A stretch of DNA of 64,000 bases, taken from the sequence record OR525700; one strand, 5' to 3'. The position numbers were made by a program, and so were the translations under genes. The DNA is from Escherichia phage vB-Eco-KMB37. Under the pieces are notes generated by a model. It saw only the letters and a program-made list of their open reading frames with translations. It was not told where the DNA came from and searched no databases. Shown one piece after another: positions 4,947-63,127 of this stretch (its first letter is position 1; each line of letters starts with the position of its first letter).

Positions 4947-5977
4947 TGTTCCTCCTGCTCTGAAATATATGCTTGTAGCATACTTTCAAAAGTTGTTTCA
5001 TCATTCGCCCAACGTTTCATATATACCAACTGAAAAATTGTCTCTATCCATTCATCAGTTGTCATTTCTACTTCTTCACCATCCCAAGAAGTAAATTTAA
5101 CGCCGTCTGGGAACCATTCATAATACTGATCTTTAACTGTCTGAAAAAGTTCAGCCTGTGTTTTACATTTGGAAATAAGATTAAAGCAAGTAATATCTCC
5201 AAACTTAACATCGAAATCTTGGTAAGGTCGAATACTATCTGTCTTATCGCCCATTAGCATTTGATAAGCTAACCAGTAACTACCCCAACCCTTAACTTCT
5301 TTTTTCTTACCTTTTTCTACGATCCAGATATCACCGATAGATTCATCAATCAGAATAACACAAGGATTTTTATAAACACCATCCTCTTTATAAAAGTTAA
5401 AGAGTAAACTCGGTGTGTGTAAGCTATCTTTGTCGATAGATGCTACAATATGAGAAAACTTACCAGTTTCCTTGTAGGCTTTATACCCTGCATATCCATA
5501 GATTTCTAAAGCATCATCTGCCTCAATACCAGTAACAACGTCACCGTTATGTTTTTCAACTAGATAATCTTTAGTATCTGATAATTGGATTGGTCTTAAA
5601 TCTGATCGCTCTGATTTATATTCTTTTGGCATTTTGAAAGAATGCCGGAAGGTTTTTCCTACCCCGATGACACCGCAATACTTTTGAAGTTTTAGGTGAT
5701 CCACCATCTGGGTTATTTTTGTCTTTGCAGCTTGAAACGTAAAAGAAATATTCTCTGGGACTATTTGAACATCTTTTATTTCAAAATCTTCTTTGGAGAA
5801 CAACTTCTTACCAGCAGCTTCGCGTTGCGCGTTAAGTGCTCCTAACCATCCTCCAATATTTTTTGAAGATTTACCCCAAAAATCTGTTCTTGTTTCAAAC
5901 TCTTTTACATTACCGGAAGCCTTGTGTACAGCGTGGATTTTTCTTTGTTCTAAAGCTGAAGACGCTTGGAACGCCAC
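4943..5977 (-). CDS. Putative FEN-like 5'-3' exonuclease
   Basis: GIEADDALEIYGY and VASIDKDSL motifs resemble the Pol I 5'-nuclease GYEADD / SGDKD signatures. Confidence 0.45.
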   Translation of the reverse strand: MAFQASSALEQRKIHAVHKASGNVKEFETRTDFWGKSSKNIGGWLGALNAQREAAGKKLFSKEDFEIKDVQIVPENISFTFQAAKTKITQMVDHLKLQKYCGVIGVGKTFRHSFKMPKEYKSERSDLRPIQLSDTKDYLVEKHNGDVVTGIEADDALEIYGYAGYKAYKETGKFSHIVASIDKDSLHTPSLLFNFYKEDGVYKNPCVILIDESIGDIWIVEKGKKKEVKGWGSYWLAYQMLMGDKTDSIRPYQDFDVKFGDITCFNLISKCKTQAELFQTVKDQYYEWFPDGVKFTSWDGEEVEMTTDEWIETIFQLVYMKRWANDETTFESMLQAYISEQEEH

Positions 5978-6069
5978 TTGATCGTAGTCTATTGCAAGAA
6001 TTGTGTTCTCGTCAACATATTTGTGCAGGTCTTCCGGTTGGATTAAAATGTAACCGCTAATATTACCTC

Positions 6070-18694: not shown

Positions 18695-18780
18695 GCAAGT
18701 GTGGTGGAATTGGTGATACACATTGTGCTTAAAACGCAACGCTTAAATGATTGAGGGTTCGAATCCCTCCACTTGCACCA
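18695..18780 (+). tRNA. tRNA-Leu (anticodon TAA), type II
   Basis: Acceptor GCAAGTG/CACTTGC, loop CTTAAAA, long variable arm, T-arm GAGGG-TTCGAAT-CCCTC, CCA encoded. Confidence 0.7.
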
Positions 18781-18782
18781 AC

Positions 18783-18890
18783 GCCTAGTAGGGTATTTGG
18801 TAATTCCGAGGCCATCAAAGCCTGAAAAATATGTTAGACCGTTTTGTCTAACTAAATACGAAATATGGTTCGATTCCATAACTAGGCTCC
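18783..18890 (+). tRNA. Atypical tRNA-like element (about 107 nt)
   Basis: Perfect 7-bp acceptor pairing GCCTAGT/ACTAGGC and T-arm TATGG-TTCGATT-CCATA, but about 32 nt too long, with an extra 7-bp hairpin GTTAGAC/GTCTAAC; anticodon not resolved. Confidence 0.3.
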
Positions 18891-18923
18891 CGATTTAAAT
18901 AGTAATTTTTTAATAAAAATATC

Positions 18924-18952
18924 TTGACATTTACTTAGTTTTTTGTTATAGT
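18924..18952 (+). promoter_or_regulatory. Sigma70-like promoter
   Basis: TTGACA-N17-TATAGT. Confidence 0.55.
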
Positions 18953-18963
18953 CATTATGAAAA

Positions 18964-19045
18964 CGGGGTGTATCTCACCTGACTTCTAATCAGGCGTTAA
19001 CCGAGTAATTGGAGTATGCAGGTTCGAATCCTGTCACCCCGGCCA
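18964..19045 (+). tRNA. Atypical tRNA-like element (anticodon-like loop TCT, Arg-like)
   Basis: Perfect acceptor CGGGGTG/CACCCCG, stem-loop CCTGA-CTTCTAA-TCAGG, T-arm GCAGG-TTCGAAT-CCTGT, CCA; no canonical D-arm and a 24-nt insert before the T-arm. Confidence 0.35.
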
Positions 19046-19063
19046 AAAAGTTTTAAAAACTAC

Positions 19064-19092
19064 TTGACAAGCAAGATAGTTTTATGTTAGAT
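19064..19092 (+). promoter_or_regulatory. Sigma70-like promoter
   Basis: TTGACA-N17-TTAGAT. Confidence 0.5.
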
Positions 19093-19108
19093 TTAAAGTA
19101 TGGTAACA

Positions 19109-19198
19109 GGAAGGTAGGGCGCAGCGGTGCGCAACCAGGTTTGAACCCTGGCCCATTGTAGCGATACGGTGATGGTTCGACTCCATTATCTTCCTCCA
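19109..19198 (+). tRNA. tRNA-Ser (anticodon TGA), type II
   Basis: Acceptor GGAAGGT/ATCTTCC, anticodon arm CCAGG-TTTGAAC-CCTGG, long variable arm, CCA. Confidence 0.65.
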
Positions 19199-19216
19199 AA
19201 TTCGCTTAGGAGCTTT

Positions 19217-19369
19217 ATGAATTATAAAACTATTGGACAGGTTGTTACCGGAGTTAAGATTGTAGATAATAAAGTTGTTTATGAGTATTCTAATCTTCAA
19301 CAATCTGAAGATGGTAAAAATATTCGTATGGTAAAAGCAGAACAAAAAGATTCCGGTTGTTTTGAATAA
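19217..19369 (+). CDS. Hypothetical small protein (50 aa)
   Basis: AGGAG RBS then ATG at 19217; the longer track ORF would start inside the preceding tRNA. Confidence 0.35.
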   Translation: MNYKTIGQVVTGVKIVDNKVVYEYSNLQQSEDGKNIRMVKAEQKDSGCFE

Positions 19370-19377
19370 TTAATAAC

Positions 19378-19463
19378 GGTAGATTGGTGAAATGGTAGCC
19401 ACAACAGTTTGCTAAACTGTAGTCGGAAACGGCGTGTAGGTTCAAGTCCTACATCTACCGCCA
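19378..19463 (+). tRNA. tRNA-Ser (anticodon GCT), type II
   Basis: Acceptor GGTAGAT/ATCTACC, anticodon arm ACAGT-TTGCTAA-ACTGT, long variable arm, discriminator G, CCA. Confidence 0.7.
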
Positions 19464-19597
19464 AGTTATCTTTAATGTAGCTTGTAATCTTACTTTAATA
19501 GAGTAAATCTTCGGCAAGTGGCGGTAACCACTTTACCGATACCCTAATACTTCATAGTCAAGTGCCGCAAACACTGGCTATTTTAAAGATAATTTAT

Positions 19598-19673
19598 ACA
19601 TCGTTAGCTTAGTTGGTAGAGCAAGGGGCTTTTAACTCCAAGGTCGAAGGTTCGAATCCTTCACGATGTACCA
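19598..19673 (+). tRNA. tRNA-Lys (anticodon TTT)
   Basis: Acceptor ACATCGT/ACGATGT, loop CTTTTAA, T-arm GAAGG-TTCGAAT-CCTTC, CCA. Confidence 0.7.
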
Positions 19674-19678
19674 AACAC

Positions 19679-19765
19679 GTAGGTATCGCATAGCGGCAAT
19701 TGCTGGAGACTGTAAATCTCCTGCCCTTCGGGGCTTCGTTGGTTCGAGTCCAACTACCTGCACCA
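19679..19765 (+). tRNA. tRNA-Tyr (anticodon GTA), type II
   Basis: Anticodon arm GGAGA-CTGTAAA-TCTCC, long variable arm, T-arm GTTGG-TTCGAGT-CCAAC, CCA. Confidence 0.7.
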
Positions 19766-19772
19766 AATTAAA

Positions 19773-19857
19773 GATGGATTGGCCTAGTGGTTGGGCGACG
19801 GACTGTTAATCCGTGAACGAAAGTTCTAGCAAGGTTCAAATCCTTGATCCATCGCCA
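19773..19857 (+). tRNA. Type II (long-variable-arm) tRNA with Asn anticodon GTT
   Basis: Perfect acceptor GATGGAT/ATCCATC, 3-bp D-stem, anticodon arm ACGGA-CTGTTAA-TCCGT, 15-nt variable arm with GAAC-GAAA-GTTC hairpin, discriminator G, CCA. Confidence 0.6.
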
Positions 19858-19864
19858 GAATCAT

Positions 19865-19941
19865 GGACTTGTAGAGTTAAGGTAAACCCTCAGTCGCCAA
19901 GAGGCTTCTGGAATTGCAGGTATCGAATCCTGCCGAGTCCA
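19865..19941 (+). tRNA. Atypical tRNA-like element (anticodon unresolved)
   Basis: Acceptor GGACTTG/CGAGTCC pairs well; T-loop has 8 nt (TATCGAAT); no clean 5-bp/7-nt anticodon arm; no encoded CCA. Confidence 0.3.
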
Positions 19942-19947
19942 ATTATT

Positions 19948-20022
19948 GCTCCTATCGTATAACGGCTATTACGGTTGCCTTGTAAGCAACTTATCAGGGT
20001 TCGAGTCCTTGTGGGAGCACCA
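19948..20022 (+). tRNA. tRNA-Thr (anticodon TGT)
   Basis: Acceptor GCTCCTA/TGGGAGC, anticodon arm GTTGC-CTTGTAA-GCAAC, CCA. Confidence 0.7.
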
Positions 20023-20045
20023 ATTTTAACTCTAAAGGAGTGTAT

Positions 20046-20369
20046 GTGACAGAAAAAGAGTTAGAGAAATATTTTAATATCAATGTTTTCGATGGTTTTG
20101 ATGATATTGAAGATGTTGAAAGATATTATGAAGTAGAGTTAGATAAGGATAACATTGTAATTCTTTCTGCCACTTATGATTGTGCATATTATGAAGGTGA
20201 ATCTCACGTTTATTTTTATGATATGAAAACATCTTTGTTTTATGAAGTACACGCATATCATTGTTCTTGTTATGGTTTAGAAGGTCAGTGGGAACCTGAA
20301 GAAATAGGTGATTTGGACTTTACTATTGCATATCTAAACAGACGTGGTGCATCTACTATTTTAAAATAA
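20046..20369 (+). CDS. Hypothetical protein
   Basis: AAGGAG RBS; likely GTG start at 20046 (track start 20040 lies inside the RBS). Confidence 0.45.
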   Translation: MTEKELEKYFNINVFDGFDDIEDVERYYEVELDKDNIVILSATYDCAYYEGESHVYFYDMKTSLFYEVHAYHCSCYGLEGQWEPEEIGDLDFTIAYLNRRGASTILK

Positions 20370-20383
20370 ATATCAAAAGCCTC

Positions 20384-20413
20384 TTGACAAAGGGGCTAAT
20401 AATATGTTAGAGT
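20384..20413 (+). promoter_or_regulatory. Sigma70-like promoter
   Basis: TTGACA-N17-TAGAGT-like. Confidence 0.5.
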
Positions 20414-20424
20414 AATATTGTTAA

Positions 20425-20499
20425 GCGGGTATAGTGTTAATGGTAGCATATGAGGTTTCCACCCTCCAGGTGCAGGTTCAAGTCCTGTTACTCGCTCCA
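20425..20499 (+). tRNA. tRNA-Gly (anticodon TCC)
   Basis: Acceptor GCGGGTA/TACTCGC, loop TTTCCAC, T-arm GCAGG-TTCAAGT-CCTGT, CCA. Confidence 0.7.
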
Positions 20500-20517
20500 A
20501 GATTATTTAAATGGAAT

Positions 20518-20570
20518 CGCTAGAGAAAATTTCTCTTTTCGCTCATGGTTTTCTCCTTCAAACTCTAGCG
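20518..20570 (+). other. Structured spacer between tRNA-Gly and tRNA-Gln (nested inverted repeats)
   Basis: Outer 8-bp inverted repeat CGCTAGAG...CTCTAGCG enclosing hairpin GAGAAA/TTTCTC. Confidence 0.3.
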
Positions 20571-20598
20571 GTTCTTTTTAAGTGATTTTTAGTTTTAT

Positions 20599-20673
20599 TG
20601 GAGATTAGCCTAGTGGGAAGGCAACGGCCTTTGAAGTCGTGATGACTAGGTTCGATTCCTAGATCTCCAGCCA
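20599..20673 (+). tRNA. tRNA-Gln (anticodon TTG)
   Basis: Acceptor TGGAGAT/ATCTCCA, anticodon arm ACGGC-CTTTGAA-GTCGT, T-arm CTAGG-TTCGATT-CCTAG, CCA. Confidence 0.75.
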
Positions 20674-20680
20674 ATATTTA

Positions 20681-20756
20681 CAGTGCGTAGCGCAGTTGGT
20701 AGCGTGGGAGCTTTGGATGCTTCGGGTCGCAGGTTCGAGTCCTGCCGCACTGACCA
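20681..20756 (+). tRNA. tRNA-Pro (anticodon TGG)
   Basis: Acceptor CAGTGCG/CGCACTG, anticodon arm GGAGC-TTTGGAT-GCTTC, T-arm GCAGG-TTCGAGT-CCTGC, CCA. Confidence 0.75.
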
Positions 20757-20761
20757 AATTT

Positions 20762-20836
20762 GCAGAGATAGCTGAGACGGATTAGTGCTACCCTGAAAAG
20801 GTAGAAAGGATGGATCGTTACCATCTCTCTGCACCA
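20762..20836 (+). tRNA. tRNA-Phe (anticodon GAA)
   Basis: Acceptor GCAGAGA/TCTCTGC, anticodon arm CTACC-CTGAAAA-GGTAG, CCA. Confidence 0.7.
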
Positions 20837-20913
20837 AATAACACCATCCAAGGAGTAGACTTGGTTAACTGTCAATAGCACATTGAGGCTTCTTACAGTG
20901 GTGTACTTATTAT

Positions 20914-20998
20914 GGCTAAGTGGTGGAATGGTATACACGATACGCTTAGAACGTATTGCCCCAGTGGATTGTGAGTTCGAGTCTCACCTTAGCTACCA
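20914..20998 (+). tRNA. tRNA-Leu (anticodon TAG), type II
   Basis: Anticodon arm ATACG-CTTAGAA-CGTAT, long variable arm, T-arm GTGAG-TTCGAGT-CTCAC, CCA. Confidence 0.7.
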
Positions 20999-21085
20999 TA
21001 TCTAAGAGATATCATAGGGTTTGCAACGGATATCTACCGTCCTATTAAGGATACCACGCCAAGACGGGTTATAAAGGGTTAGCCA

Positions 21086-21161
21086 TTGATAGTGTGAAGC
21101 TGGCGTTTCGAGTGCTTTCATAAGGCATTGCGAGAAGAGTTCGATTCTCTTACTATCAACC
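21086..21161 (+). tRNA. tRNA with CAT anticodon (Met or Ile2)
   Basis: Acceptor TGATAGT/ACTATCA, loop TTCATAA with wobble-containing stem, T-arm AAGAG-TTCGATT-CTCTT, CCA. Confidence 0.55.
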
Positions 21162-21177
21162 AAATTACTACAGATTG

Positions 21178-21256
21178 CGCGGGATAGAGGAGTCTGGTCG
21201 TCCTCGCCAGTTTCATATGCTGGAGATCATCGGTTCGAATCCGATTTCCGCCTCCA
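21178..21256 (+). tRNA. tRNA with CAT anticodon (Met or Ile2), boundaries approximate
   Basis: D-stem AGGA/TCCT, loop TTCATAT, T-arm ATCGG-TTCGAAT-CCGAT; acceptor pairing imperfect. Confidence 0.5.
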
Positions 21257-21332
21257 ATAAATACCTCCCTTCTGGTGTAATGATTAAATTACATTGACAC
21301 TTCAAGGAACTCATAGCCGGGTAGATTTAAAA

Positions 21333-21397
21333 GAGTATGGTACTCAATATGGCTCCAAACCATAGATCAAGGGGTTCGATTCCTCACCTTGCTGCCA
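21333..21397 (+). tRNA. Possible tRNA-Trp (anticodon CCA), 5' boundary uncertain
   Basis: Anticodon arm TATGG-CTCCAAA-CCATA and T-loop TTCGATT plus CCA are clear; no acceptable 5' acceptor strand found with a normal D-arm. Confidence 0.3.
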
Positions 21398-21401
21398 ATA
21401 T

Positions 21402-21477
21402 TGTGGTATCGTACAGATGGTTAGTACACTCGACCGATAATCGAGAAACAACGGTTCGACTCCGTTTACCACGACCA
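21402..21477 (+). tRNA. tRNA-Ile (anticodon GAT)
   Basis: Acceptor TGTGGTA/TACCACG, D-stem GTAC/GTAC, anticodon arm CTCGA-CCGATAA-TCGAG, CCA. Confidence 0.7.
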
Positions 21478-60541: not shown

Positions 60542-60973
60542 TTAATCAGTGAAAATTACGCTTACATCTTCTTTAGAAAAGAGTTTATGATCTTCACCTT
60601 TTGTCTCAAGAGTTTCATACAGGCTAAGAAGTTCTGAAACATCTTTCTCTACCAGTTTCTTCAATGTTGCAATTTTCTGTTTGCGACTCTTAATACGTTC
60701 AGCTACAACCTTACGCTGGTATCCGGCAGTACGATAACCTGAGAAAGTTACACCAGTAAGGCTTGCAGTTACAGGATCGTAATGACGTTCAATCTGAAAC
60801 TTATTAAAAGGTACAGCGTCATCACGAATAATCTTACCGCCATTACTTACTTGACGAAGACCAGTAACTTGTTCCAGTCGTGCCATAGAAATCTTTGGAG
60901 ACAGACCAGAGTCCAGGTTCATACCATTGTTAATCAGTGCTTTCAGGGTGATTTTGCTGTTCAGTGTACTCAT
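60542..60973 (-). CDS. Hypothetical protein (start probably internal Met near 60922)
   Basis: 143-aa ORF whose longest form overlaps the methyltransferase 3' end by 44 nt. Confidence 0.4.
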   Translation of the reverse strand: MSTLNSKITLKALINNGMNLDSGLSPKISMARLEQVTGLRQVSNGGKIIRDDAVPFNKFQIERHYDPVTASLTGVTFSGYRTAGYQRKVVAERIKSRKQKIATLKKLVEKDVSELLSLYETLETKGEDHKLFSKEDVSVIFTD

Positions 60974-61661
60974 TTAGTCGTTCCTCCGCTTGCTTAAAAA
61001 TATTTACATCGGCTTCACAGCCTAAGTATTCTCTACCTGTTAAAAGTGCCGCAACTTGTGTTGTTGCACTTCCAGAGAAGAAGTCTAAGACTACATCTCC
61101 TTCGTTGGTGTGTATATTAATAAGGTCACAAAACAAAGTCAAGTGTTTTTGTGTTGGATGAAAACGATCTGCTCCTTGATAGATAGGATACTCAAACACA
61201 CCCTTATGGTAGGAAGCATTGAAGGTTGGTTTCGAACCTTTAACACAAACAATAGCCATCTCTTTAGCGTTACTAAGGTAGTTAACACCACTGTTGATGG
61301 GTACAGGGTTTGTTTTAATCCATTCGATAGTACGGAACATACGAAAACCAAGCGGTTCAAGGATTTCACGTAGCTCTTGGATCTTCCAGATATCATACCA
61401 AACTATGCAAGTACCACCTTTTCTAAGCACCCTGTAGGCTTCTTTGAATACTTCTTTAAAGTAAGGAATATCTACAACATCCCAGTCACCAAAGTTGTAA
61501 GATACACGGAATCTATCCGTATCTTTTCCAGTAGGCTCTCCAGACTGAAAATTTGTGTCACGAGAAATAGCATATGGTGGGTCAGTAAGAATCAAATCTA
61601 CACTATTGCTTTCGAGGGTTTGCAGGTAGTTTAATGCGGTGTTGTTTACAAATTCGCTCAT
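60930..61661 (-). CDS. DNA methyltransferase, beta class (N6-adenine or N4-cytosine)
   Basis: DPPY (ILTDPPYAI) near the N-terminus and AdoMet motif VLDFFSGSATT near the C-terminus. Confidence 0.8.
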   Translation of the reverse strand: MSEFVNNTALNYLQTLESNSVDLILTDPPYAISRDTNFQSGEPTGKDTDRFRVSYNFGDWDVVDIPYFKEVFKEAYRVLRKGGTCIVWYDIWKIQELREILEPLGFRMFRTIEWIKTNPVPINSGVNYLSNAKEMAIVCVKGSKPTFNASYHKGVFEYPIYQGADRFHPTQKHLTLFCDLINIHTNEGDVVLDFFSGSATTQVAALLTGREYLGCEADVNIFKQAEERLNEYTEQQNHPESTD

Positions 61662-61677
61662 TATATCTCCTTCAAAG

Positions 61678-61700
61678 AAAAGGAGCCGTTAGGCTCCTTA
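61678..61700 (-). terminator. Terminator-like hairpin; second copy of the repeated hairpin
   Basis: AAGGAGCC-GTTA-GGCTCCTT between the SSB-like and methyltransferase genes. Confidence 0.45.
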
Positions 61701-61721
61701 TATTCACACAATATTTAACTA

Positions 61722-62669
61722 TTAGAAACAGTGCAGGAAGTTTCGACCATACTGCAAACCAATAGGAGCAAATGGGATATCATCATCGAAATCTTGAACA
61801 ACAGGTTCTGGTTCTTTCGGTGCTGGCTCTTTCTTCTCTACTTTTTTAGTTTCTTTCTTAACTTCTTGTACTGGGGTAGACATTCCACGGATAGCAGCAG
61901 CTACTTTATCAGACAAAGCAAGAACTTCACGAGCAGCTTCAATAATCTCTTCTGCCGTTACAGTTTTACCTGTATGATCACGACAAGCGTTAAGAATTGC
62001 GTGTCCAACTGAAGCACCAAGATCATAGTCAGTCACATCAACGCCACGATCTTTAGCAATTTCTGCTTTCAGAGTAACAGTTGCAGATTGTACCACACCA
62101 GCCAAGTCGAAAGCATCACCTTTCACACCAGCACGTAGAAGCTCCAGAGCGCCGTTTACAGCGTGTCCTGTTTCAATCCCTACGGTATCACGTTTTTTGT
62201 AGTTAGGCTTACTACCTTCGTTATTAGATGGCTTATTTCCACCTTTTGAAGAAGATTGTGCTTGCTGAACACCTTCTGTTGAAAGAATAGTGATTTTACC
62301 TTTAGAGGAATTGTAGTATGTTTTGCCATTCCATTCAGAAGGTTTAACATCCATAGTTAGTTCTACACCTTTTTCGATAGTAACCCACTTATCACCATCT
62401 TTAACTTGCAGGTTTTCATGTTCTGGATGCAGTTTAACTTCACCTAGGCTAACCCAAACACCTTTATCATCAGCACCAGCACCTTTCTCTTTAATAAGCA
62501 GGGATGCTTTGTGAGTTGATTCAATTTTCTTATCTGGCTGACCTGCAACCTTAATATAAGAGACTTTCATTTCATCAAACTTATCTAGTTTGACATATTC
62601 AACGATACCTTCAGCCCAGAATGCTTCTTTTTTAGTACGACGGTCGATTTCAGAATTAATTACTGGCAT
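61722..62669 (-). CDS. ssDNA-binding-like protein with SSB-type acidic motif
   Basis: Gly/Ser/Gln/Lys-rich linker then DFDDDIPF near the C-terminus, followed unusually by 15 more residues. Confidence 0.45.
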   Translation of the reverse strand: MPVINSEIDRRTKKEAFWAEGIVEYVKLDKFDEMKVSYIKVAGQPDKKIESTHKASLLIKEKGAGADDKGVWVSLGEVKLHPEHENLQVKDGDKWVTIEKGVELTMDVKPSEWNGKTYYNSSKGKITILSTEGVQQAQSSSKGGNKPSNNEGSKPNYKKRDTVGIETGHAVNGALELLRAGVKGDAFDLAGVVQSATVTLKAEIAKDRGVDVTDYDLGASVGHAILNACRDHTGKTVTAEEIIEAAREVLALSDKVAAAIRGMSTPVQEVKKETKKVEKKEPAPKEPEPVVQDFDDDIPFAPIGLQYGRNFLHCF

Positions 62670-62685
62670 AAATTCTCCTCTATAA

Positions 62686-63084
62686 TTACATTACTTTAAC
62701 ACAAAACTCTCGTAAAAGAGTAGCGTCAGTTTCTTCCAACAGGTATTTACCAAGACCAATACCAAATCCTATTTCACCACTTTCAAAATGGAGGATTTGT
62801 ATCTTTTCTCCACCAAGGTTAATTACTTTTGCTTTTCCAGGATTATCCAAAACATCTCGTATTGTATCCTGTAGTAACATAAGTTCACGTTTTGTGATAG
62901 TGGTTTCAGATATCTCTTTGTTTTCTACTCTCACTGTTAAACGGTTGTATCCACCAAAGAGACATAGTATTTGAATAAAAAAGGTATTATCTTGAGGTTC
63001 AACATCTTTTTTAGTTAGCTCAAGACGATTAGTTTCTCTACTGTAGAACGTCTCGACTAAGATTTTAGAACGATTATCTGTCAT
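62686..63084 (-). CDS. Hypothetical protein
   Basis: 132-aa ORF. Confidence 0.4.
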   Translation of the reverse strand: MTDNRSKILVETFYSRETNRLELTKKDVEPQDNTFFIQILCLFGGYNRLTVRVENKEISETTITKRELMLLQDTIRDVLDNPGKAKVINLGGEKIQILHFESGEIGFGIGLGKYLLEETDATLLREFCVKVM

Positions 63085-63127
63085 TCAAGTCCTCATAATA
63101 ACACACAATTATAATGTTTGTCAACAC

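What the first reader, a model, noticed from the sequence alone, without database searches (positions are those of the whole stretch)
61722..62669. SSB-like protein whose DFDDDIPF motif is not at the C-terminus
Host SSB ends exactly in DDDIPF, the docking peptide for many repair and replication proteins. Here the same motif follows a disordered Gly/Ser/Lys linker but is followed by 15 more residues (APIGLQYGRNFLHCF). It could be a divergent phage SSB or a decoy that sequesters host SSB partners.
Basis: partly seen in the sequence, partly recalled or inferred. Interest (0 to 1): 0.45.

Follow-up and report, generated by a model that had tools for sequence, protein, structure and literature searches.

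The report
Phage SSB with mobile capped tail
This phi92-like phage encodes a single-stranded-DNA-binding protein whose host-like docking tip (DFDDDIPF) is followed by a conserved 15-residue cap, found on many phage and plasmid SSBs and often carried alongside a homing endonuclease gene; what the cap does is untested.

Summary
The ORF at 61722..62669 (-) encodes 315 aa ending DFDDDIPF + APIGLQYGRNFLHCF, and phi92-like genomes share this end, so it is not a sequencing error. The protein belongs to phrog_4477 (phi92 gp156 / rV5 ORF214 / Bas52_0087). The model shows an N-terminal OB fold, a four-helix domain and a disordered tail.

The extension is not unique to this protein. The motif A-P-[IV]-[GT]-L-x-[YF]-x-x-x-x-[IL]-[HY]-x-[ILF] follows DDIPF on at least three other protein families, including canonical lambdoid-phage and IncN/IncT plasmid SSBs, and follows DDDTPF on one primase/helicase. 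It evolves as coding sequence under purifying selection (pN/pS 0.41 in frame, 1.35 out of frame). Window versus nieznany shows 6 synonymous and 0 non-synonymous differences.

In virulent phages the extension travels with a zinc-finger HNH homing endonuclease whose start codon lies inside it. Sister phages (ukendt, Bas52) lack both and end exactly at IPF. ECO340P2 keeps the extension beside a gutted endonuclease gene. The window keeps the extension and has no endonuclease.

One added glycine abolishes E. coli SSB binding to chi, so the cap probably blocks canonical docking and changes partner choice. That step is inferred. I rate it a new variant of a known kind, of moderate interest.

The parts
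61722..62669 (-). Whole gene: SSB-like protein of 315 aa, orthologue of phi92 gp156, family phrog_4477
   Evidence: ORF. phrog_4477 match at E=2.2e-101 and no Pfam match. 100% identical to Escherichia phage Antha and 97% to phi92 gp156.
62280..62669 (-). Residues 1-130: predicted OB-fold beta-barrel, the presumed ssDNA-binding domain
62190..62279 (-). Residues 131-160: disordered linker rich in Gly, Ser, Lys, Asn and Gln
   Evidence: pLDDT 44-64 and no secondary structure.
61884..62189 (-). Residues 161-262: four-helix domain, a putative oligomerisation domain
   Evidence: AF2 helices 163-179, 186-208, 215-230 and 239-260 with pLDDT >90. The DRT10-escape substitutions D252V and Y351C of orthologue Bas52_0087 fall in its equivalent region: D252 lies in ...YDPIGVETGH, whose counterpart motif in the window protein is ...RDTVGIETGH (residues 160-169), and Y351 lies in the distal helical region.
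61794..61883 (-). Residues 263-292: disordered tail linker rich in Lys, Glu and Pro
   Evidence: pLDDT 47-63.
61770..61793 (-). Residues 293-300: DFDDDIPF, identical to the E. coli SSB C-terminal tip
   Evidence: P299 and F300 are invariant and D293 and D297 nearly invariant in the alignment of 57 family members.
61725..61769 (-). Residues 301-315: APIGLQYGRNFLHCF, the conserved post-IPF extension ('type A')
   Evidence: Present in 20 of 99 family clusters. Also present on canonical SSBs of HK75, IncN and IncT plasmids and Vibrio phages. pN/pS 0.41 in frame against 1.35 out of frame. 6 synonymous and 0 non-synonymous differences from nieznany.
61715..61750 (-). 12-codon +1-frame ORF (MVETSCTVSNS*). 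Its first 19 nt are identical to the 5' end of the nieznany homing-endonuclease gene. No endonuclease gene follows.
   Evidence: Junction sequences. Beyond the extension's stop codon, similarity to the endonuclease gene is 11 of 20 nt, which is suggestive but not significant (reasoned).
61680..61699 (-). Terminator-like hairpin AAGGAGCC-TAAC-GGCTCCTT plus T-rich tail, directly before the RBS of the DNA methylase gene (60930..61661)
   Evidence: Homologous hairpins follow the gene in ukendt, ECO340P2 and L218. The methylase matches PF01555 at 1.9e-30.
62686..63084 (-). Conserved upstream gene (gp157-like, phrog_16560, function unknown), found immediately upstream in every fetched Stephanstirmvirinae-type locus; rV5 and SSE121 also have a small upstream ORF that was not compared
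   Evidence: A promoter-like site lies at 63124..63095 (11 of 12 matches, TG).

Best explanation
The gene encodes the replication-module single-stranded-DNA-binding protein of a phi92-like (Justusliebigvirus) phage. The predicted parts are an N-terminal OB fold that would bind ssDNA, a four-helix domain that probably mediates oligomerisation, and a long disordered tail carrying an exact copy of the host SSB tip, DFDDDIPF. The 15 residues after the tip are not read-through junk. They are a conserved peptide module kept by purifying selection. The module occurs after acidic ...PF termini on several unrelated phage and plasmid replication proteins of Enterobacterales and Vibrio. In virulent phages it moves together with a free-standing zinc-finger HNH homing endonuclease (phrog_2340 / phrog_1035). 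That endonuclease sits immediately 3' of SSB genes, and its start codon lies inside the extension. The window carries the state 'extension present, endonuclease absent', most simply because the endonuclease was lost, as documented in ECO340P2. Inferred function: canonical SSB-tip pockets need the free alpha-carboxylate of the last Phe, so the extension should block ordinary promiscuous docking to host SSB partners. It would either mask the tip or turn it into a longer two-part ligand with a different, narrower partner. At the DNA level it also removes the Phe-codon/stop-codon junction, where the endonuclease-linked alleles diverge from their sister alleles.
Against: No experiment addresses this protein or the extended tail. 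AF2 gives the extension low confidence (pLDDT ~52-57) and no docking onto the body, so there is no structural hint of how it works. The perfect retention of DFDDDIPF in extended proteins is hard to reconcile with simple masking. DRT10 also restricts Stephanstirmvirinae, so the extension does not obviously change that phenotype. In two genera the extension and the endonuclease are gained or lost together, which also fits a passenger role. The selection test uses non-independent sequence pairs. Beyond the stop codon the window shows no significant endonuclease remnant, so loss in this lineage is not proven.
Confidence: 0.55

Rival explanations
1. Passenger scar. The extension is only the 5' flank of a homing-endonuclease cassette that inserted at the last codon of the SSB gene. 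It is tolerated but has no function as a protein, and the window keeps it as a leftover after the endonuclease was lost.
For: Extension and endonuclease are present or absent together in Phapecoctavirus (nieznany/ukendt) and Vequintavirus (rV5/Bas52), with breakpoints at the Phe codon. ECO340P2 shows endonuclease decay that leaves the extension in place. Other endonuclease-linked SSB genes carry arbitrary-looking additions (IPFN*, IPFS*, other long tails).
Against: 80 of 80 IMG/VR 'DDIPFAP' loci lack the endonuclease. Those carrying the type A extension keep its length (14-15 aa among these loci; 15-17 in the phrog_4477 family) and motif. In-frame pN/pS is 0.41 with saturated synonymous sites, and out-of-frame ratios exceed 1. 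There are 6 synonymous and 0 non-synonymous differences between the window and nieznany. Two of those differences lie in the overlap and are non-synonymous in the endonuclease frame. The endonuclease start codon sits at different positions in different extensions, so it does not explain the conserved GLQY.
Confidence: 0.2
2. Decoy. The protein, or its tail, sequesters host SSB-interacting proteins such as ExoI, RecQ, PriA or chi by presenting DDDIPF.
For: The host tip is copied exactly. The orthologue Bas52_0087 triggers DRT10, a system tuned by host ExoI (SbcB), and the authors suggest competition with SbcB.
Against: Bas52_0087 ends exactly at IPF, so that evidence concerns the non-extended form. 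[quoted passage not shown] The OB fold, the replication-module position and the universal presence of the gene in these phages fit a working SSB.
Confidence: 0.1
3. DNA-level immunity only. The extension is kept because it destroys the recognition or cleavage site (Phe codon plus stop codon) of SSB-tail-specific homing endonucleases from coinfecting phages. The peptide is constrained only to be harmless.
For: About 79 of 80 endonuclease homologues sit at SSB 3' ends, and 55 of 79 adjacent tails are altered precisely after Phe, with a conserved CCTTTTAATTAR junction. The allele breakpoints lie at the Phe codon.
Against: Immunity needs only a few changed bases. It does not explain a conserved 15-residue motif shared by several unrelated protein families, or extension types that follow host taxon. 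Cleavage specificity is untested.
Confidence: 0.1
4. Artefact. A sequencing or assembly error, or read-through into a self-splicing intron, creates an apparent extension, and the real protein ends at IPF.
For: None found. The idea arose only because endonuclease genes often sit in group I introns.
Against: Dozens of independently sequenced genomes have the same end. No Rfam intron family matches in the window or in the endonuclease-carrying loci. The substitution pattern is codon-periodic.
Confidence: 0.02

Closest known systems
Bas52_0087 (QXV84166.1) of Escherichia phage RudolfGeigy / rV5 ORF214: SSB-like trigger of the DRT10 reverse-transcriptase defence (bioRxiv 10.64898/2026.04.29.721553)
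   Same: Same protein family (tblastn hits to rV5-group phages at 35-40% identity). Same OB fold, helical domain, disordered tail and FDDDIPF motif. Same replication-module position.
   Different: The rV5-type proteins are about 100 aa longer, with an extra beta-domain (two OB folds according to the preprint). Bas52_0087 ends exactly at IPF. The window protein carries 15 more residues. rV5 itself has the extension plus the endonuclease.
E. coli SSB (PF00436) and its C-terminal tip, the docking site for chi, ExoI, RecQ, PriA and others
   Same: OB fold followed by a disordered linker and an acidic tip. The last 8 tip residues, DFDDDIPF, are identical.
   Different: No PF00436 match. There is an additional four-helix domain. 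The tip is not C-terminal. In E. coli SSB one extra residue already abolishes chi binding.
Canonical SSBs of lambdoid phages and conjugative plasmids that carry the same extension (HK75 gp31, IncN pYNKP001 Ssb, IncT Rts1 Ssb, Vibrio phage SSBs)
   Same: Same two-part C-terminus: (PPM)DFDDDIPF followed by a 15-residue AP[IV][GT]L.[YF]....I[HY].[ILF] (16 residues in Rts1).
   Different: Unrelated body (phrog_44 / PF00436-type tetrameric SSB against phrog_4477). No endonuclease lies next to them. I found no paper that describes this extension.
Phage T7 gp2.5 and gp4 acidic C-terminal tails ending in Phe (from memory: Marintcheva et al. 2006; Lee et al. 2006, J Biol Chem)
   Same: A phage with a T7-like PolA. 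In the rV5 group, both the SSB-like protein and the primase/helicase end in acidic ...PF tails (Bas52...FDDDIPF* and ...EDDETPF*). This fits shared docking on the polymerase.
Free-standing phage homing endonucleases next to replication genes, for example T4 SegG beside gene 32 (from memory: Liu et al. 2003, J Mol Biol) and T4 MobE (PMC2790892)
   Same: The endonuclease gene lies directly next to the SSB gene. Closely related phages differ in carrying it or not. Flanking sequence is co-converted.
   Different: This family (phrog_2340 / phrog_1035; zinc-finger N-domain CxxCG...EFYKH...DGHxNKCKxC with an HNH or other nuclease domain) overlaps or abuts the last codon of the SSB gene and changes the protein's C-terminus. 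The window itself has no endonuclease.

Membership tests
phrog_4477 (phi92 gp156 / rV5 ORF214 / Bas52_0087 SSB-like proteins) | Significant full-length profile match | tested here: met
   E=2.2e-101, 340.7 bits. 99 homologous clusters found.
phrog_4477 (phi92 gp156 / rV5 ORF214 / Bas52_0087 SSB-like proteins) | Conserved position: after a small gp157-like gene, downstream of the PolA-type DNA polymerase | tested here: met
phrog_4477 (phi92 gp156 / rV5 ORF214 / Bas52_0087 SSB-like proteins) | OB fold, helical domain and disordered acidic tail with DDDIPF | tested here: met
Bacterial-type SSB (Pfam PF00436) | Sequence match to the SSB OB-domain profile | tested here: not met
   No Pfam family at E<=1.
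Bacterial-type SSB (Pfam PF00436) | OB fold resembling SSB or RPA | tested here: met
Bacterial-type SSB (Pfam PF00436) | Acidic tip at the extreme C-terminus with a free Phe carboxylate | tested here: not met
   15 residues follow F300.
Bacterial-type SSB (Pfam PF00436) | Binds ssDNA cooperatively | not testable with these tools
   Needs EMSA or fluorescence titration with purified protein.
'Type A' extended SSB tails (described here; not a curated family) | DDIPF followed by 14-17 residues matching A-P-[IV]-[GT]-L-x-[YF]-x-x-x-x-[IL]-[HY]-x-[ILF], then a stop | tested here: met
   APIGLQYGRNFLHCF fits at every position.
'Type A' extended SSB tails (described here; not a curated family) | Purifying selection in the SSB reading frame | tested here: met
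   pN/pS 0.41 against 1.35 out of frame. 6 synonymous and 0 non-synonymous differences from nieznany. The sequence pairs are not phylogenetically independent.
SSB-3'-end homing endonuclease cassette (phrog_2340 / phrog_1035) | Endonuclease ORF with a CxxCG...EFYKH...CKxC zinc-finger N-domain immediately 3' of the SSB gene | tested here: not met
   Only a 12-codon ORF remains at 61750..61715. The terminator and the methylase gene follow.
SSB-3'-end homing endonuclease cassette (phrog_2340 / phrog_1035) | Site-specific cleavage of alleles that lack the endonuclease, followed by homing | not testable with these tools
   Only the allele pairs and their breakpoints were seen.
T7 gp2.5-type phage SSB | gp2.5-like OB fold with an acidic tail whose last residue is Phe | tested here: inconclusive

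The most novel reading that the evidence does not exclude
The residues after IPF are a distinct short linear motif matched to the host taxon: type A in Enterobacterales and Vibrio, APLHHLAGA in Pseudomonas, APEWR in Rhizobiales. Mobile elements would use it to convert the promiscuous, weak SSB tip into a specific ligand or inhibitor for one host replication or repair factor. A dedicated homing-endonuclease family spreads this module among phages by targeting the universally conserved tip-coding DNA, possibly including the host's own ssb gene.
Probability: 0.2. Interest if true: 0.75.

Novelty: new variant of a known kind. Interest (0 to 1): 0.55.

Why it matters
The SSB C-terminal tip is the central recruitment hub of bacterial genome maintenance, and it is thought to work only as a free C-terminus. 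This work shows that hundreds of phage and plasmid SSBs, and at least one primase/helicase, carry a selected peptide after that tip. It also shows that a whole homing-endonuclease family lives at this exact spot and rewrites the end of the protein. That raises three testable questions. Do mobile-element SSBs really plug into the host partner network, or do they deliberately avoid or redirect it? Does the cap affect the defence systems that sense phage SSBs, such as DRT10, retrons and AbpAB? Do these endonucleases cut tip-coding DNA in rival phages, prophages, plasmids or the host? The practical consequence is that annotation pipelines and recombineering tools relying on 'SSB ends in DDDIPF' would misread these proteins.

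Tried and rejected
(1) Sequencing error or wrong stop codon: rejected, because many independent genomes share the same end.

(2) Group I intron read-through, with the endonuclease inside an intron: rejected. Rfam finds no intron in the window or in the endonuclease-carrying loci. The extension shows codon-periodic substitution. The rV5/Bas52 indel is a simple insertion ending at the next terminator.

(3) Conservation of GLQY caused by the endonuclease start codon (TATGG): rejected. The start codon lies elsewhere in L219-L221, and the endonuclease-free prophage SSBs keep the motif.

(4) Endonuclease remnant downstream of the window's stop codon: only 11 of 20 nt are identical to nieznany, which is not significant.

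(5) Apparent relic of the first extension codons in the ukendt and L218 3' UTRs (13 of 19 and 11 of 19 nt with a 1-nt indel). This is suggestive of loss by frameshift, but I chose the register after the fact, so I have not relied on it.

A phmmer search with the last 31 aa against 1.84 billion representatives gave only 3 significant hits, because the query is so short.

(7) Pfam did not recognise the endonucleases at default sensitivity. PHROGs did.

(8) Literature searches for the literal peptide and for 'SSB C-terminal extension' found no description of it.

(9) Intramolecular docking of the extension: AF2 gives no confident contact.

(10) Clamp-binding (QL[SD]LF), PIP-box, ssrA-like degron and SH3-ligand resemblances were checked by eye and none fits. 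No test was run.

Full report
WHAT IS THERE. The window comes from a phi92-like myovirus (Justusliebigvirus, Stephanstirmvirinae). The protein is 100% identical to a hypothetical protein of Escherichia phage Antha and 97% identical to phi92 gp156. The ORF at 61722..62669 (-) encodes 315 aa and ends ...EPVVQDFDDDIPF-APIGLQYGRNFLHCF*. The tip is therefore residues 293-300, and 15 residues follow it. Fifty phage records carry the protein at >=99% identity, and all listed phi92-like records align through residue 315. The stop position is therefore not an error.

The gene lies in the replication module. It follows a conserved small gene (phrog_16560), a nucleotidyltransferase and a T7-like PolA, and it precedes a DNA methylase. 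A promoter-like site at 63124..63095 and a terminator-like hairpin at 61699..61680 bracket the two-gene unit. Some depositors already call the homologues SSB.

A 2026 preprint identified the rV5-group orthologue Bas52_0087 as an SSB-like protein with an FDDDIPF motif that triggers the DRT10 defence system. Its escape substitutions D252V and Y351C match D252 and Y351 of rV5 ORF214 and fall in the helical region. ssDNA binding itself remains inferred.

THE EXTENSION IS A RECURRENT MODULE. Among 99 homologous clusters, 79 end exactly at [IVL]PF and 20 carry an extension. Examples are APIGLQYGRNFLHCF, APIGLQYGMNLLHAMP, APVGLQYARHAISALYA, SPLGLQYPNHSMYALYA, APIGLPYGRNFIHCI and APVGLQYGRSKIYAL.

tblastn with the tail plus extension hits 236 phage and 141 plasmid records, 95 of the plasmids conjugative. 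These include canonical PF00436-type SSBs:
- lambdoid phage HK75: ...NEPPMDFDDDIPFAPVTLPFPRHAIHAI
- IncN pYNKP001: ...DFEDDIPFAPVTLPFPNHAIHAL
- IncT Rts1: ...DFNDDIPFAGLGASFGKHTIHAIC
- pCVMN1543, Vibrio phages and the T1-like phage ESh4.

The module also ends a phrog_7364 SSB (P0100), a phrog_32668 protein (P0102) and an unclassified 108-aa protein (P0101). More surprisingly, it ends the primase/helicase of a Klebsiella Mydovirus (...DDDTPF-APIGLQYAKHAIYVI*). The Bas52 primase/helicase (same PHROG family, same genomic position) ends ...EDDETPF*.

A degenerate DNA scan for DDIPFAP in IMG/VR and in GTDB genomes shows extension types that follow host taxon. Type A occurs in Enterobacterales and Vibrio, APLHHLAGA-like in Pseudomonas and APEWR(G) in Rhizobiales. 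The leading 'AP' was imposed by the search pattern there, but it is also the rule in the unbiased family set.

THE EXTENSION IS UNDER SELECTION AS PROTEIN. I analysed 25 distinct endonuclease-free type A DNA sequences over codons 3-15. In the SSB frame pS is 0.74 (near saturation) and pN is 0.31, a ratio of 0.41. In the two other frames the ratio is 1.35. Column entropy is 0.89, 0.61 and 1.40 for codon positions 1, 2 and 3. The window and nieznany proteins are about 60% identical in the body. Their extensions are identical in protein yet differ at 6 of 45 nt, all synonymous (P~2e-4). Two of those changes are non-synonymous in the overlapping endonuclease frame. Extension length stays at 14-17 residues. 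The pairs are not phylogenetically independent, so these are indications rather than a formal test.

LINK TO A HOMING ENDONUCLEASE. In nieznany, Mt1B1_P17, rV5, ESh4 and six metagenomic relatives, an endonuclease ORF begins inside the extension and overlaps its end by 8-29 nt. The ORF has the N-domain CxxCG..K.L.EFYKH..M.DGH.NKCKEC. It belongs to phrog_2340 'endonuclease' or phrog_1035 'endonuclease VII'.

Close relatives lack both the endonuclease and the extension. ukendt is 100% identical to nieznany over the last 41 nt up to ...GATATTCC and diverges from there on. KP2025, L218 and Bas52 are the other examples. rV5 differs from Bas52 by an insertion of about 639 bp that starts inside the Phe codon and ends at the shared terminator. 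ECO340P2 keeps the extension but retains only the first 46 nt and the last ~20 nt of the endonuclease gene. This is a caught-in-the-act deletion.

Of 80 IMG/VR homologues of the endonuclease, about 79 lie immediately after an acidic ...PF tail. Twenty-four of those tails are canonical, 43 have one extra residue (mostly IPFN*, with a conserved CCTTTTAATTAR junction) and 12 have longer additions. Conversely, none of 80 'DDIPFAP' loci, mostly prophage SSBs, has the endonuclease.

My reading is as follows. The extension is an older, selected feature of mobile-element SSBs. An endonuclease lineage settled directly behind it. The only sequence shared between different SSB genes is the tip-coding DNA upstream, so the extension is co-transferred whenever the endonuclease moves.

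The window has the extension, then a 12-codon +1-frame ORF whose first 19 nt equal the endonuclease 5' end, and then the terminator. Loss of the endonuclease is the simplest history, but it is unproven.

LIKELY MECHANISM. The architecture, the selection and the mobility are shown. The functional step is inferred. Naue et al. showed that E. coli SSB with one added glycine has no measurable affinity for chi and complements only under slow growth, because K124 and R128 of chi clamp the terminal carboxylate (PMC3045619). A 15-residue cap should therefore prevent canonical docking. Yet DFDDDIPF stays invariant in capped proteins, which argues that tip and cap act together as one longer ligand rather than the tip being simply switched off. 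The occurrence of the cap on both an SSB and a helicase tail, and the taxon-specific cap types, point to a partner-binding role. The partner is unknown. AF2 shows no self-docking. DRT10 restricts Stephanstirmvirinae as well as Vequintavirinae, so the cap does not obviously hide the protein from that system.

COMPARISON AND NOVELTY. The protein is a member of the gp156 / ORF214 / Bas52_0087 family. It works like an SSB but is not a PF00436 member. The capped tail and the SSB-3'-end endonuclease family were not found in the searchable literature. I rate the finding a new variant of a known kind, with interest 0.55. A specialist would be surprised by how common and how conserved capped SSB tips are, and the questions raised are directly testable. 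No new mechanism has been demonstrated.

Noticed in passing
L015-L094 (IMG/VR loci fetched with the endonuclease alignment A4): The phrog_2340-type zinc-finger HNH endonuclease is almost always (about 79 of 80 loci) located directly after an SSB-like acidic ...PF tail. In 43 loci the SSB gains exactly one residue (IPFN*, IPFS*, IPFK*) with a conserved DNA junction CCTTTTAATTAR. A hairpin and a TATAAT-like element often precede the endonuclease start.
   Followed up: partly
L343:1495-1700 (Escherichia phage ECO340P2): An internally deleted endonuclease gene. Its first 46 nt (MVETSCIASKVCFKC) are fused to the last ~20 nt (...GLNAE*), and the ukendt-type terminator follows. The SSB extension is intact.
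   Followed up: yes
L217:1003-3066 (Klebsiella phage vB_Kpn_K54_rec3) versus L216:1613-3691 (Bas52): The primase/helicase of the Mydovirus ends ...DDDTPF+APIGLQYAKHAIYVI*, with a phrog_99 HNH endonuclease 57 nt downstream. The Bas52 primase/helicase (same PHROG family and genomic position) ends ...GFEDDETPF*. The same cap therefore occurs on a second replisome protein with an acidic PF tail.
   Followed up: partly
L095-L174 (IMG/VR) and L222-L301 (GTDB genomes): Other short post-IPF extensions follow host taxon: APLHHLAGA-like in Pseudomonas, APEWR(G) or APETRG in Rhizobiales and Devosia, and APISRLLLNII in some Pseudomonas. Many genome hits to the DNA pattern were chance matches in unrelated ORFs.
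   Followed up: partly
window 18695-21474 (+): A cluster of 14 tRNA genes detected by Rfam at gathering threshold.
   Followed up: no
window 63124..63095 (-) and 61699..61680 (-): A strong sigma-70-like promoter match (TTGACA, 18-nt spacer, TATTAT, extended -10 TG) lies upstream of the gp157-like gene, and a terminator-like hairpin lies after the SSB-like gene. Together they suggest a two-gene transcription unit.
   Followed up: no
L216:3750-6803 (Bas52 DNA polymerase, flag j2) and L217:3123-3632, 5799-6057: The Bas52 DNA polymerase CDS is annotated as joined from two pieces. In the Klebsiella relative, HNH endonuclease genes flank the polymerase gene. The replication module of these phages appears heavily colonised by mobile endonucleases.
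   Followed up: no
L003:3876-3905 (ukendt) and L218:2895-2925: The 3' UTR directly after IPF-stop in relatives without the extension resembles the first ~19 nt of the extension (13 of 19 and 11 of 19 nt with a 1-nt indel). It may be a relic of an extension lost by frameshift. The register was chosen after the fact.
   Followed up: partly
P0101 (108 aa) and P0102 (480 aa): Two further proteins end in the same tail plus cap: ...DDDFPFDEDIPFAPIGLQYGRNFLHCF and ...GGGFDDDLPFAPVGLMYDNNFLHCI. The first has no PHROG match and looks largely low-complexity. The second is very acidic (phrog_32668, function unknown).
   Followed up: partly
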